NCBI GenBank assembly: GCA_951406725.2 | Contig: OX597830.1 | Span: 45,074,001 to 45,138,000, forward strand | Source: Octopus vulgaris | Taxonomy: Eukaryota | Direction of reading: 5' to 3' | Length of the DNA: 64,000 nt | Part shown: positions 20,120-60,780 of the stretch, piece after piece | Layout of the letters: every line of letters begins with the position of its first letter | Numbering within the stretch: the first letter of the stretch is position 1 | Made by a program: the position numbers and the translations under genes | Notes under the pieces: model-generated | Told to the model about the DNA's origin: nothing | Seen by the model: the letters and a program-made list of their open reading frames with translations, nothing else | Database searches by the model: none

Positions 20120-20357
20120 GAGGTAAATTCAGAAAAAAGTGTAGGTCAATCAACAAATTCCAGACGCAAAATTTTAAACATAATCTTAAAAATACACCTA
20201 CATTAATACAATTTAATACAGATCAATAGATTTATTCATATAGATCTATTGATTTGTATTAAATTGTATTAATGTAGGTGCATTTTTAAGAGTATATTTA
20301 AAATTTTGCGTCTGGGAATTTGTTGATCGACTTTTACTTTGTTTCTGAATTTACCTC
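20120..20357. repeat. ~240-bp fold-back inverted repeat
   Basis: gaggtaaattcagaaa...cagacgcaaaatttt...atagat versus its reverse complement ending gaatttacctc; loop near 20236-20239. Confidence 0.9.
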
Positions 20358-20443
20358 TTTACTTATCGTTCGTCTCGGATACTCCGAGCTCTCAGTTGCA
20401 GCCCATATATTTATATATATATATATATATATATATATACACA

Positions 20444-21915
20444 CTAGCAGTATAGCCCGGCGTCGCCCGGGATTAAGTTAGGATTATTAAGCTAATCGCT
20501 TTTTTTCAAACTAAACTAAATAACACCGACGTCAAATTTGAACGAAATCCGTTGAAATTGGTAAACGTTTGGCTGAAAATGGGTTGCCGACAATGTAATT
20601 GGGAAATCCCATAAGGAATCCGTTTATCGATTTTTCCACTCATCGATTGTTTATTTTATTTTATTTATTTATTTGGAGAACTTAAAGCATTCAAAGATCC
20701 CATGAATCCTAAGTAACGCCGGCGTCAAGTTTGAACAAAATACATCAACATTGGTAAAAGTTATGGTTGAAAATGGGGTGTAGTCAATTTTAGTGAGAAA
20801 TCCTATAAGGAATCGGTTTATCGATTTTTCATCTTGATTGAATGGAAAACCCCATAAGGAATTAGTTCGATTTTTCATCCCAAATAGGACTTAACCGAAC
20901 ACAACATTGCTGATTCAAAAAAATCTATATTTATACTTTAAAGTTGGTATTCACACCCAACACAGTTCTGCAGAATCAGTGCTGCGACGGGAACGCATCG
21001 GTTGGGAGTTTGACCGGCAGAAGTGATAAGGTTGCACATGTTGGCCCTTTCGAAACCACCACCCCATCATCTAACTCCCCTTGGCTCATGGGATGGGAGC
21101 CTTTCCAGCAAGGAAAATAGAACGCTTAAAAGGGCTCCCGATCCTCTGTATCAAAAGAGGTTATGCTCAGATCACAACTAAGACTTAACCTAAGCCTAAG
21201 CTAACCTAACGAAAGGGGGATCAGGAGCCTCTGAAAGGCAGCGACTAATCCCGATCTAGACCTAACCAGTCCTAGGGGTACTATCGGTCAAAGCTGGAAT
21301 AAAGCAGCAAATGTATACGAAAACAAGGACGGAAAAAACGGAGGGGGCTGGCCAGATTGGAACAATCTCGAGTATAACCAGCCGAAATTGCAAAGATAAT
21401 CTGGAACTCGACTGAGAAAAGAAAACTTTCCGAGGCTTCAGCTTCACCTCACCACGTTTTTCGGACCCCAAAAAGGGTTTTGTAGCATATTAGGGGGTCA
21501 CAGAAATTCATTCAACGAAAAAAAAATCCAATGATTCCGGGATGGGTGTCCCCCCTCACCCTACCCCTCCCTTTTTCCGAACCAAAATAAGGGATTTGCA
21601 GCATATTAGGAGTTCAGGGTACTTGATTCCACGCAAAAAATCCGAGTTTTTTCCTTTGGCTTAGTGAAAATCGTGCGGGTGTTAATCTAAAAATTTACCC
21701 TTTGTTTTTCTTTCTCGCCATTGCTAGACAGGTGACTTAACTCATATAGCAAACTTACGGATTTCACCGACGTGGAAATTGGTAAAAGTTATGGTTGAAA
21801 ATCGATTTTTACCACTATCCGCGGGTGACTCGGGGAACAGCCATGATCGTGACCAATGTCCTAAAATTGGAGCGACAAGCGTGCTAATTTGTGGACGTGC
21901 ATAAATTACATTCAA
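20444..21915 (-). mobile_element. Helitron-like non-autonomous element with internal subrepeats
   Basis: 3' end cccgggcgacgccgggctatactgCTAG at 20444-20471; internal ggtaaaagttatggttgaaaat repeats. 5' boundary uncertain. Confidence 0.55.
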
Positions 21916-21951
21916 GTATATATATATATATATATATATATATATATATGC

Positions 21952-23500
21952 ATATTTTGAAATGTTCATAAAGTTCAATTAGTGCTTTCATACGTTCGTA
22001 GTAATCATCAGATTACAAAATGTATTTAACTGACCGTTGAGTTCTTGACAACTGTAGTAAAATCATTGACTTCTTCCCCTTTTATACCTTTTAGAAGGCT
22101 CCAGCAAGCTGAATTTCTGAAATACGGTTTCGATAAATCAGCATGCATCTTAAAAGTCACAGTTTGCCGGATGCACCGTATTACTGGACACCAAGAAGCA
22201 CGGATCTCTCTTTCTGCTTGCCTACGCCAGGACAGCATGCAAGAGCTTCACTGAAATGTTCCGACTACTGCTATTTTTCTCTGACCACATGTTCAACAAT
22301 GTATACTCGTTATTTGCAAAATATTTTGCTTAAGTAGTGTTAACTACAGTAATTTCTATGAAATCTTCATATGAGTACTGTATATATTCGACTGAGACAC
22401 TACAGCTCGTTGCTTCCACTCACAACAATAAAAATGTGTTAATGTTAAATGATGTCCCATTTCCTTAATGCATCCTTCACATAAGAATTTGTACTAACAT
22501 TTTCTTATTTACACCCTACCACTAAAAAGTGGTTGATCCCGACGAAAGATATTTCTGCCTTCTGATGGAAACCATCATTTACTCAACTACACCCACGAGG
22601 TCGACTACGCTGATGATATTTTTGCCTTCGGAGGTGAAACACAGCATTTAGCTTTGGTGGCCCTAGTATTCATACGATGTTCGGAATTCTTTCTTTTCCA
22701 CGTGCCTCATTGCCTCCACATACAAAAATTCTTTCCGAAAGGTTTTTTTTTTAAATTAGCAGTATAGAGATGGTCTTCGAATCATTTCCAATTTTTTCTC
22801 TCTTGACTTATTGTTTGGTCTGTTTGAACAGTCCAGTTTTGGGCGCCTGCATTCGTTCTGTTTCCTGTTCACGGTGACAGTATTTTAATCGGAATTTTTT
22901 ACAGTTTTTCAGCAAGGTGAACCCTTCTACCTTACCTGTGTTTACTGGAGACGTTAAGCTGTGGTTTGTTCCGGTCAAATCTCATTTTCTCGCCGCCAGT
23001 ATTCAATCAACCCAACAGCAACTCCATATTATATTTGCCAAAACATATAGACCTGACTTCACTCGAGTTTAAATTTCCCGCTTGCCGCCATTTGGACACC
23101 ACCCCGATTTTTATCAATGATGCAACCTCTACCATTTTGCTTCGACACCCACTCCATCTTTTGGATTTCATCAATTGGATCAACTCACTGCTTCGACTTA
23201 CTGAGTTTTTACAGCCCTGTGATGCCAGCTCATTTACACCAGCTCGACTCTGCTTTCTTTTACGGCACTGAACTGCACTCGCAGTTCAGTGCCGTAACAT
23301 CTAAGATGCATGTTGATTGGTCAAAACTGCATTCCAAAAGTTTTGCTTGTTGGAGCCTTCTATTAGGTATAAGGGGAAAAAGTCAGTGATTTTACTACAG
23401 TTGTCAAGAACTCAGCTGTCAGTTAAATACATTTTGAAATCTGATGATTACTACGAACGTATGAAAGCGGTAATTGAATTTTATGAACATTACAAAATAT
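21952..23500. mobile_element. 1.55-kb element with ~210-bp terminal inverted repeats, each containing a hammerhead core
   Basis: Arms ~21952-22161 and ~23292-23500. CTGATGA-ttac..gtat-GAAAgc..TA at 23441-23472 (+) and with CTGATGA at 22011-22005 (-). Confidence 0.75.
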
Positions 23501-23858
23501 TATGTTAATGTTTAACACATTCAACATTCTAAAATTTTTTTTTAAATACATTGATAAAAAATATGAAAACCAGACCATGTTGTAACTGTATTCAACTGAT
23601 ATAAATATGTGTGTGTGTGTTGTTAATTAAACGTCCTTTGAAAACAAGGTGTATTAGATGAAAAATGATCTAGTATATGAAATATGTCTAAAATCTTAAA
23701 AGAAATTTAGAGATTCCTGAGAGCGATTTTAAATTAGAGAGTAAAATAGTGGAATAGTTATATCTTAAAAATCATGATAAAGATAAGGATATAATATTAG
23801 CAATATCGTATTAATAAAGTAAAGCTATGATTATTAAAAAGTTTTGAAATGTTTAAAA

Positions 23859-58891: not shown

Positions 58892-59140
58892 ATAGGGTCT
58901 GTTGGACACCGTTTCTGATAAAAACAGCACCATGACACAATTCATTTTGCCAGAAATTTGGAAACGACATGTTCTACTGCTTGGCATTCACGCAGGAAGC
59001 TCCAATAAGAACATTTCAAAGTGTTTGGGTGTCAATCTGAGGACATGTACTGAGAGTGATAAAAATCAAACATCCAGTCAACATTATGGCGTTTGAAGTG
59101 ATCACTAGTGATGGAGACGTTATGCCTCCATTCATCTTTC
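58892..59140 (+). mobile_element. Tc1/mariner-type relic
   Basis: [24 protein letters not shown] (HTH-like) joined to [24 protein letters not shown]. Confidence 0.55.
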
Positions 59141-59409
59141 ACACACACAAACACACCCACCCACCCACACATGTATGTATATGTGTGTATATATATATAT
59201 ATATATACATACATATATATATACACACACACACACACACACACACACACATATATATATATATATATATATATATATATATATATACATATATACATAT
59301 ATATACAGGTATATATACATATATATATATATATATATATATATATATATATGCATATATACATATATATATATATATACAGGTATATATATATATATAT
59401 ATATATATA

Positions 59410-59726
59410 AGCTTTATGAAAATAGACAAAAGACGAAGGCAGGTGGAAAACAAACGAACAATTGTATTAGTATGGCGCTCAGGAAATATAAATAAACAAG
59501 TCTTTAACGTTTCGAGCCTACGCTCTTCAACAGAAAGATACACAGAGAAAAAACACAGAAAGAAGGATATACACATTCTCCTTTTTTCTCTCCTTGTTTC
59601 TTTCTGTAGAAGAGCGTAGGCTCGAAACATTAAAGACTTTTTCAATTCCCAAGCGTTATACTAATACATCTGTTTGTTTTCTACACCACCTGTCTTCATA
59701 TTTTGTTTTTTTTTGTGAATTCTCCC
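59410..59726. mobile_element. Fold-back of two head-to-head Penelope pseudo-LTRs in (TA)n
   Basis: Inverted arms, each carrying tcttt-CTGTWGA-A-GAGC-gtag-GCTC-GAAAC..aaaga (59501-59538 -, 59599-59636 +); homologous to 13800-13930. Confidence 0.8.
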
Positions 59727-60107
59727 TATATATATATATATATATATATATATATATATATATATATATATAATACTTCATAACAAAGTTCTCCTCCAAA
59801 CTGAATGGCTGATAATATTTCTATAATGACTAGTACTAGATGAAGGACCAATTTTGTAAAGTAAATTGTATTAAACACACACACACACTTTTGTACACAC
59901 ACACACACACACACACACACACACGTACTCTTTCTGACTTTCTCTCCATACCTCACCCACTTTTATTATCTTATATCTCTCTCCACCCTTACACCCTCAA
60001 TAATACTATAAAAAGAGACAAATCTCCTGAAAAAATTCTATCTGAAGCCTCCACTAGAGTGGACGCAAGCGCTGTTATATGATTTATAAAAACATGTGAG
60101 ATTTTTT

Positions 60108-60277
60108 TCTCTAGTTTCAGCTCAGAGCTGTGGCCATCCTGATGCACCGCCGTTTTGCAAAACTGTTATTACTAAGAGCCTCCTCTAATATGTGGCACTT
60201 GGTGAAGCATGGAGATCGATATAACTACTCTCATTTGCACCTCTTGCCGTGAGGTAGGTTCATCTGGGACTCTCGAC
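60108..60277 (-). mobile_element. CR1-group LINE 3' end
   Basis: Homologous to 29535-29705. Confidence 0.8.
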
Positions 60278-60780
60278 AGTTGTAATTCTGAAATGGAAAG
60301 AGAAATAAAAACGTTTACCCTCTCCTTTCTGGACTATGCATAGTTTCGGCAATCTTTTGTAAATAAAATAAATTTGTTTACCACTGGCGTTGCCTCTTCC
60401 CCAGAAAAGCCAAGGACTACCATATATTCACGAGGTGATAATAAACATGCCCTGAGTGTATATGCTATAAATTTTCAAAATCCACCACACACGTACGGTT
60501 AATGATTTTTTGGCTAATTTGGAAATTAAATCGGCAGTTTATATTTACTGTTGAGAAAACCGCGCGAGTGTGGTGGATTTTGAAAATTTATAGCATATAG
60601 ACACGAGGCATGTTTATTATCGCCTCGTGAATATATGATAGTCCATGGCTTTTCAGCTGAAGAGGCAACGCCAGTGGTAAATAAATTTATTTTATTTACG
60701 AAAGATTGCCGAAACTATGCATAGTCCAGAAAGGAGAGGGTAAACGTTTTTATTTCTCTTTCCATTTCAGAATTACAACT
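60278..60780. mobile_element. 503-bp fold-back element with ~223-bp arms carrying hammerheads
   Basis: Arms 60278-60500 and 60558-60780 with a 57-bp spacer. Confidence 0.9.
60649..60734 (+). ncRNA. Hammerhead ribozyme (type I, canonical core)
   Basis: cttttcag-CTGAAGA-GGCAA...TTGCC-GAAA-CTATGCATAG-TC-cagaaagg; predicted cleavage after 60726. Confidence 0.8.

What the first reader, a model, noticed from the sequence alone, without database searches (positions are those of the whole stretch)
20120..60780. Recurring fold-back elements built from head-to-head Penelope-type repeats with outward-facing hammerheads
Seen: six elements with no obvious mutual sequence similarity share one architecture, inverted arms with a hammerhead motif on the minus strand in the left arm and the plus strand in the right arm. 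They are 21952-23500, 35809-36067, 52407-52664, 53279-54853 (with a GIY-YIG ORF), 59410-59726 and 60278-60780; 20120-20357 is a similar hairpin with no visible core. Stem III is palindromic or nearly so in each (AGCGCT-like, AATATT, ACACGTGT, ACAATTGT, ACGT, ACTATGCATAGT), and several abut (TA)n. Established: Penelope pseudo-LTRs carry minimal hammerheads thought to act as dimers, and inverted pseudo-LTRs occur. Inference: either a stereotyped two-ended integration product or a non-autonomous palindromic retrozyme-like class. Read-through would form long dsRNA that masks the ribozyme and could attract ADAR or RNAi.
Basis: partly seen in the sequence, partly recalled or inferred. Interest (0 to 1): 0.8.

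Follow-up and report, generated by a model that had tools for sequence, protein, structure and literature searches.

The report
Two-ended Penelope retroelement insertion hairpins
The hairpins are real but are mostly ordinary leftovers of Penelope-like jumping genes, likely folded anew at each landing rather than copied as a class of their own; their regular one-long-arm, one-short-arm ends suggest that the element likely copies one RNA from both cut ends of the target at once.

Summary
All seven inverted repeats are real; the hammerhead motifs are real but complete in only some arms. They are not one class. Five (20120, 21952, 52407, 53279, 60278) look like single Penelope-like (PLE) insertions in the published 'inverted 5'-truncated copy plus one-sided tail' layout. 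59410 is two different subfamilies (77% alike) lying side by side. 35809 recurs at 603 places with an identical junction only because it is cargo of a 2.4-kb Helitron. Among 56 independent copies of that last family taken in positional order, 31 are fold-backs, all head-to-head, with 28 different junctions, and 12 of 25 show target-site duplications. A self-copying palindromic class is therefore not supported; a stereotyped integration product is. Added value: one arm ends at the long and the other at the short 3' end in 40 of 41 scorable fold-backs of three families, the arms share subfamily alleles, and often neither arm is nested in the other. This fits twin priming at the two known PLE start sites better than self-primed fold-back. 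Transcription, cleavage and editing were not testable. The scan noted the same layout before in four other windows.

The parts
20120..20404 (.). E1 fold-back: arms 20120-20235 (-) and 20240-20357 (+), 47-nt tail 20358-20404 on the right arm only; 3' end of a PLE family cut below its hammerhead
   Evidence: a relative (L172/L178) holds GIY-YIG sequence upstream of the arm and 3 relatives hold a CTGATGA motif 316-751 nt upstream
21952..22160 (-). E2 left arm, core CTGATGA at 22005-22011, ends short at (TA)n
22190..23259 (.). E2 spacer, not E2-family sequence; part reads like a decayed LTR-retrotransposon gag start (recalled motif, not tested)
23260..23297 (.). perfect 17-bp palindrome with 4-nt loop at the inner end of the E2 right arm
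   Evidence: sequence
23294..23533 (+). E2 right arm, core at 23441-23447, with an extension beyond the left arm's end
34241..36630 (+). non-autonomous Helitron (A|TC ... hairpin CTAG|T) that carries E3; 603 exact copies of the E3 junction in the genome, some in head-to-tail arrays
35809..36130 (.). E3 fold-back of a ~205-nt non-coding hammerhead element: left arm (-) with complete G3-C8 motif (core 35924-35930), right arm (+) truncated inside the core and bearing the tail 36068-36130
52407..52664 (.). E4 old fold-back (75%), cores at 52508-52514 (-, C3U) and 52549-52555 (+), arms overlap by 8 nt at the centre
53279..53461 (-). E5 sense pLTR (short end, abuts (TA)n), core CCGAAGA at 53424-53430
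53847..54671 (-). E5 5'-truncated PLE ORF, 274 aa: linker plus GIY-YIG endonuclease
54671..54911 (+). E5 inverted pLTR joined directly to the truncation point, core at 54702-54708, 58-nt tail 54854-54911
59410..59571 (-). E6 left element: young subfamily (96-99% to other copies), core CTGTTGA at 59527-59533
59572..59726 (+). E6 right element: different subfamily (92-96% to its own copies, 77% to the left one), core CTGTAGA at 59604-59610
60278..60500 (-). E7 inverted arm, core decayed, outer end lost next to a LINE fragment
60499..60856 (+). E7 sense arm of a ~455-nt non-coding retrozyme-like unit, canonical core CTGAAGA at 60657-60663, ends at the family's short end before (TA)n

Best explanation
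Most of these hairpins are likely single integration products of Penelope-like retroelements and their non-coding derivatives, each likely formed at insertion and not copied onward as a hairpin. Shown: strict head-to-head polarity, unique junctions, target-site duplications around the whole unit, one arm ending at the long and one at the short 3' end, shared subfamily alleles between arms. Inferred mechanism: the PLE protein (probably a dimer) nicks both strands of an AT-rich or (TA)n target about 9-13 bp apart; each free end primes reverse transcription on the same RNA, one at the distal and one at the proximal of the two start sites that bound the 'tail'; the two cDNAs run towards the RNA 5' end, stop at variable points and are joined head-to-head, often through a few bases of microhomology. 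The hammerheads face outwards simply because each arm is a copy of the pLTR end. Two of the seven are exceptions: E3 was made once in this way and then multiplied as Helitron cargo; E6 is two separate insertions. Confidence: about 0.85 that these are per-insertion PLE products, about 0.55 for the two-site twin-priming step.
For: E3 family, 98 loci taken in positional order on one chromosome: 42 carry the Helitron junction, 56 are independent; 31 of 56 have an upstream inverted arm (score >=60), none a downstream one; 28 junction classes in 31. Ends: long/short in 24 of 25 scorable; E1 10 of 10 (read), E7 6 of 6; pooled 40 of 41 where independent ends give at most half. In 12 of 24 the short-ended arm reaches at least 10 nt further 5' than the long-ended arm, so neither arm can be a copy of the other. 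Arms agree at 44 of 50 non-CpG polymorphic sites against 55.5 +/- 7% in 5000 re-pairings, none reaching it. Non-microsatellite duplications of 8 nt or more flank 12 of 25 against a mean of 0.76 (max 4) in 500 re-pairings. The one junction that recurs independently (4 identical, 1 near) lies in a 7-nt self-complementary word and its central base varies, as expected from repair of an annealed mismatch. PLE link: E5 ORF has homologs of 540-757 aa with weak RT or GIY-YIG Pfam hits and RT remnants upstream in relatives; E1 relative with GIY-YIG. Literature: PMC11167929 shows two RT start sites bounding the tail, nicking and extension of both strands, predicted dimer.
Against: The end rule was not shown for E2, E4, E5 relatives: their true ends were not resolved, one E2 locus (L127) has both arms at similar length, and 2 of 4 other E5 inversions stop well short of the pLTR end, 1 is cut by the locus edge; one further E5 locus has an L1-type non-overlapping inversion. 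One E3 locus is short/short (L266; its inverted repeat runs about 50 nt into the flanks). 6 of 31 E3 fold-backs were dropped as unscorable. Allele sharing cannot tell one RNA from two RNAs of one source, or from later gene conversion; overall arm-arm identity (93.7%) is only slightly above between-locus identity (92.5%), and only 13 of 184 rare alleles are shared. No autonomous partner was identified for E3, E6 or E7; the links for E2 (L115) and E4 (L156) are single loci not shown to be contiguous. In vitro the two strands did not differ in start site, and nothing there tests paired use. No duplication can be read for most window copies.
Confidence: 0.6

Rival explanations
1. Same insertion products, but made by one priming followed by self-priming or snap-back (as proposed for rotifer PLEs, on an antisense template), with the endonuclease later trimming the tail from one arm.
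For: Palindromes at junctions (E2 23260-23297, E4 centre, the 7-nt word in E3); PMC3846280 argues for self-priming; PMC8557442 ascribes the tail to EN-mediated resolution.
Against: In 12 of 24 E3 fold-backs neither arm is contained in the other, which a simple self-copy cannot give; duplications abut both outer ends.
Confidence: 0.22
2. Two RNA molecules from one source element, possibly held together by the palindromic stem III dimer, are each reverse-transcribed from one target nick, with the protein imposing long on one side and short on the other.
For: Allele sharing fits equally; stem III is palindromic in every family and dimers are predicted to be more stable than two monomers; PLE hammerheads are reported to work as dimers.
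Against: Does not by itself explain why the ends are almost never equal; solo copies use either end (10 long, 6 short of 18); hammerhead mutants did not affect insertion in vitro.
Confidence: 0.12
3. A self-propagating, non-autonomous palindromic class (retrozyme- or MITE-like) that moves as a whole hairpin.
For: One hairpin junction occurs at 603 places, 99-100% identical.
Against: 41 of 42 such loci share both flanks and lie in a Helitron; outside it junctions are unique; ends are asymmetric, unlike terminal inverted repeats.
Confidence: 0.03
4. Chance or targeted neighbouring of two independent insertions in (TA)n.
For: True for E6: arms from different subfamilies, 0 of 24 and 1 of 19 relatives have an inverted partner.
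Against: Predicts tail-to-tail and direct pairs equally; none downstream-inverted in 59 + 130 loci; shared alleles and shared duplications.
Confidence: 0.03

Closest known systems
Inverted insertion units of endonuclease-positive Penelope-like elements (PMC3846280, PMC8557442; passages read)
   Same: 5'-truncated copy joined to an inverted pLTR, head-to-head 'most frequently observed', tail on one arm, short target-site duplication, palindromes at junctions, microsatellite or AT-rich targets
   Different: Here mostly very short non-coding units; tails 47-97 nt rather than 30-40; the one-long-one-short rule and non-nested arms are counted
Minimal PLE hammerheads, including opposite-strand pairs 100-700 bp apart in Schistosoma (PMC4209133; passages read)
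   Same: type I, palindromic short helix III, extra base between 9 and 10.1, paired motifs on opposite strands
   Different: family-wide core variants G3-C8 (E3), A6U (E6), U4C (part of E5); that paper reports U3-A8
Poseidon element PAc in vitro (PMC11167929; passages and second half of main text read)
   Same: two RT start sites bounding the tail, both strands cut and extended, AT-rich targets
   Different: paired use of the two sites in one insertion is not tested or proposed in the parts read
Non-LTR retrozymes (PMC7229834 passages; bioRxiv 10.64898/2026.07.22.740005 first fifth read)
   Same: E7 family: non-coding, ~455-nt permuted unit with a type I hammerhead, PLE-like ends
   Different: dispersed, mostly sub-monomer copies; no full tandem array seen in 19 loci; circular RNA untested
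L1 twin priming (recalled, not read)
   Same: two primings from the two target nicks give a 5' inversion inside one duplication
   Different: L1 arms come from different parts of the RNA; here both copy the same pLTR end, giving a hairpin
Non-autonomous Helitron with captured cargo (defining ends recalled)
   Same: A|TC start, subterminal hairpin, CTAG|T end, head-to-tail arrays
   Different: cargo is a retroelement fold-back with a hammerhead motif

Membership tests
EN+ Penelope-like element | ORF with RT and C-terminal GIY-YIG endonuclease | tested here: met
   E5 only: homologs at 28-31% over the whole fragment, weak RT/GIY-YIG Pfam hits below cut-off, RT remnants upstream in relatives; E1 through one relative
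EN+ Penelope-like element | autonomous partner for the non-coding families E2, E3, E4, E6, E7 | tested here: inconclusive
   tblastn on flanks gave isolated hits not shown to be contiguous
EN+ Penelope-like element | type I minimal hammerhead with palindromic helix III in the terminal repeat | tested here: met
   family cores conserved with N7 variable in E6, E7; predicted fold for E3, E6, E7 arms; no Rfam match
EN+ Penelope-like element | ribozyme self-cleavage | not testable with these tools
   needs in vitro assay
EN+ Penelope-like element | inverted 5'-truncated copy, head-to-head | tested here: met
EN+ Penelope-like element | optional tail on one end | tested here: met
   40 of 41 scorable fold-backs in E1, E3, E7 families; bimodal ends in E5
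EN+ Penelope-like element | short target-site duplication | tested here: met
   12 of 25 in E3 family; not readable in window copies
Neptune clade | Zn-finger-like linker and RT phylogeny | tested here: inconclusive
   a Cys-rich linker is visible in P0001 and its homologs; no tree was built
non-LTR retrozyme (E7 family) | tandem non-coding repeats each with a type I hammerhead | tested here: inconclusive
   453-463-nt partial tandems in 3 of 19 loci, no two complete units
non-LTR retrozyme (E7 family) | circular monomer RNA | not testable with these tools
   only assembled contigs available
MITE or fixed palindromic element | constant structure with symmetric ends at unrelated sites | tested here: not met
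   28 junction classes in 31, asymmetric ends
Helitron (E3 carrier) | 5' TC, 3' hairpin and CTAG, insertion between A and T | tested here: met
   19 of 20 starts follow A (the other follows CTAG of a tandem copy); all ends found, in 26 of 30 loci, are followed by T
Helitron (E3 carrier) | RepHel partner | not tested
   no search made

The most novel reading that the evidence does not exclude
PLE integration is routinely double-ended: the two nicked target strands prime on one RNA at the two tail-bounding start sites, one each. This single rule would explain the inverted pLTR, the one-sided tail and the target-site duplication together, and the young ~205-nt family here (G3-C8 hammerhead, more than half of independent copies folded back) records it hundreds of times.
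Probability: 0.5. Interest if true: 0.6.

Novelty: new member of a known kind. Interest (0 to 1): 0.36.

Why it matters
The layout is known, so as an object it is ordinary. How PLEs make their inverted structures is, however, stated to be unresolved in the papers read. The counted end rule, non-nested arms and duplications turn that question into a sharp test for the existing in vitro system. Smaller points: a natural family-wide G3-C8 hammerhead core, and a case in which Helitron cargo mimics a self-copying hairpin class and seeds about 600 near-identical potential double-stranded RNA sources.

Tried and rejected
Rfam scan of the whole window was swamped by microsatellite matches to microRNA models (254 of 404 rows not shown); rescans of two elements gave no hammerhead family. 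Whole-window repeat finder swamped by microsatellites. Strict hammerhead descriptor: 0 hits. Selenoprotein idea from frequent TGA in E5 relatives: rejected, the TGA codons fall mostly at CGA/CGG positions, i.e. CpG decay (20 loci). Junction at the ribozyme cut site: not enriched; inner ends are spread from -14 to +139 with 2 of 41 at +43/+44. Expression: no RNA holder listed; only contigs of guessed type could be laid, which show the families in related material but not strand, ends, circles or level. Two T>C sites at about 16% in one guessed-RNA run and under 1% in two other runs cannot be called editing without matched DNA. Lunse et al. on PLE hammerhead variants was not available, so I cannot say whether G3-C8 or A6U cores are already in print; PMC3088659 passages list U3-A8, A6C and U4C. 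Searches for an earlier twin-priming model for PLEs (listings only) showed none, but subscription journals are not covered. The gag-like spacer of E2 was not scanned against Pfam.
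Full report
Setting. The window lies in a 2.8-Gb genome of 227 contigs, is rich in (TA)n and LINE remnants, and looks like a cephalopod genome (my inference; not told, not verified). 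I call the seven elements E1 (20120) to E7 (60278) in order.

Observation. Local alignment of each region to its reverse complement confirms all seven pairs of arms, 75-95% identical. Hammerhead cores face outwards as described, but are complete in only some arms. A strict descriptor found none; a relaxed, post hoc one found 4 against a mean of 0.3 in 20 shuffles. Family data make the motifs credible: E7 relatives keep CTGA-GA with position 7 varying in 17 of 19, E6 subfamilies that are 77% alike keep the same stems and CTGT-GA, E2 and E4 keep canonical cores in most copies. E3 has GTGAACA, the G3-C8 swap, in 97 of 98 loci, the other being GTGATCA, although the search motif allowed C3 and G8. 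Local inverted repeats are common in this genome (23 in 120 kb), so the window is not enriched for hairpins as such.

E5 is a textbook case: a 5'-truncated PLE on the minus strand (GIY-YIG ORF 53847-54671, pLTR 53279-53461) with an inverted pLTR joined at the truncation point and a 58-nt tail on the inverted arm only. Homologs are 540-757-aa proteins with weak RT or GIY-YIG hits. E1 lacks a core because it is cut below it; relatives carry a core motif and, in one locus, GIY-YIG sequence upstream. E2 has about 1.1 kb of unrelated sequence and a perfect small palindrome between its arms. E7 belongs to a non-coding family with a ~455-nt permuted unit. E6 is not a fold-back: each arm is 92-99% identical to its own subfamily but 77% to the other, and 0 of 24 and 1 of 19 relatives have inverted partners.

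Do junctions recur? For E3 the first answer was yes: 40 of 40 scored hits were full length and 99-100% identical and the junction occurs 603 times. But the flanks are shared too: the hairpin sits in a 2.4-kb element with Helitron ends and tandem arrays. To avoid score bias I took the first 100 listed of 1422 exact matches of a core motif, in positional order on one chromosome (98 loci). 39 were flagged as carrying the Helitron junction and 3 more were reassigned by eye; 41 of these 42 share both flanks, while 55 of the 56 independent loci share neither. Of the 56, 31 have an upstream inverted arm at score 60 or more; at a lower threshold 41 of 59 did, none had a downstream inverted or a direct copy. 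There are 28 junction classes among the 31. In five other families, score-ranked hits gave 36 of 130 loci upstream-inverted and none downstream-inverted (includes the window's own five copies, and the E7 query favoured hairpins). Orientation is thus not random, and junctions are unique.

Mechanism. The E3 family has a fixed 5' end (also seen as loose ends in contigs of other runs) and two 3' ends about 56 nt apart. In 24 of 25 scorable fold-backs one arm has the long and the other the short end (6 of 31 unscorable); E1 gives 10 of 10 (1 unscorable, read), E7 6 of 6 (2 unscorable). In 12 of 24 the short arm reaches further 5' than the long arm, so neither is a copy of the other. Arms share subfamily alleles (44 of 50 against 55.5% in re-pairings) and whole hairpins are flanked by duplications (12 of 25 against 0.76; most others lie in microsatellites). 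The simplest reading is two primings from the two target nicks on one RNA, one at each start site, then head-to-head joining. This joins the in vitro findings of PMC11167929 (two start sites bounding the tail, both strands extended, predicted dimer), which does not itself propose paired use in the parts read. Against: ends were not resolved in E2, E4 and E5 relatives, with apparent exceptions; gene conversion or two sister RNAs could give the allele sharing; overall arm identity is barely above background.

Known status. PMC3846280 calls head-to-head the most frequent arrangement, with a tail on one inverted pLTR, duplications and junction palindromes, and proposes self-priming. PMC8557442 draws the same layout as typical. 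PMC4209133 notes paired minimal hammerheads 100-700 bp apart on opposite strands. All were seen as passages only; their supplements were not opened and may hold further examples. Four earlier notes of this scan on other genomes reached the same general reading; I had formed mine before, and did not check their data.

RNA level. Read-through RNAs of the five compact hairpins are predicted to be 73-93% paired, which would bury the ribozymes, but no data here show transcription, cleavage, editing or small RNAs.

Verdict. Real, known layout, new families; not a new class. Interest 0.36, carried by the counted end rule and its testable mechanism.

Noticed in passing
   Followed up: partly
window 34241-36630: The Helitron also holds a 107-bp tandem array (about 34745-35440) and what looks like a second, nested Helitron start near 36235; copies occur head-to-tail.
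   Followed up: partly
E6 families (L051-L075, L215-L234): A6U hammerhead core conserved in two subfamilies 77% alike, with position 7 varying; activity unknown.
   Followed up: partly
E5 family (L076-L105): Core is CTGAAGA or CCGAAGA with CpG-decay variants, suggesting a U4C ancestral form in part of the family.
   Followed up: partly
L254, L257, L295: Three of 59 E3-family copies end at +41 to +43, next to the predicted cut site, in AT-rich sequence; may be chance.
   Followed up: partly
L255, L272: E3-family fold-backs with 121 and 207 nt of foreign sequence between the arms.
   Followed up: no
window 3709-7626 (-), 24232-25506 (+), 61490-63200 (-): A LINE with a 932-aa endonuclease-RT frame and an upstream zinc-knuckle frame, and decayed related RT fragments.
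   Followed up: no
window 43564-45301 and 50270-52027: Two further inverted pairs without hammerhead hits; the second is two copies of a dispersed repeat also at 8234, 46153 and 56178.
   Followed up: no
window 27192-27262 (-): tRNA-like Rfam match above the gathering score, possibly a SINE head.
   Followed up: no
window 36015 and 36055: T>C at about 16% depth in one guessed-RNA run, under 1% in two other runs; editing or species difference cannot be told.
   Followed up: partly
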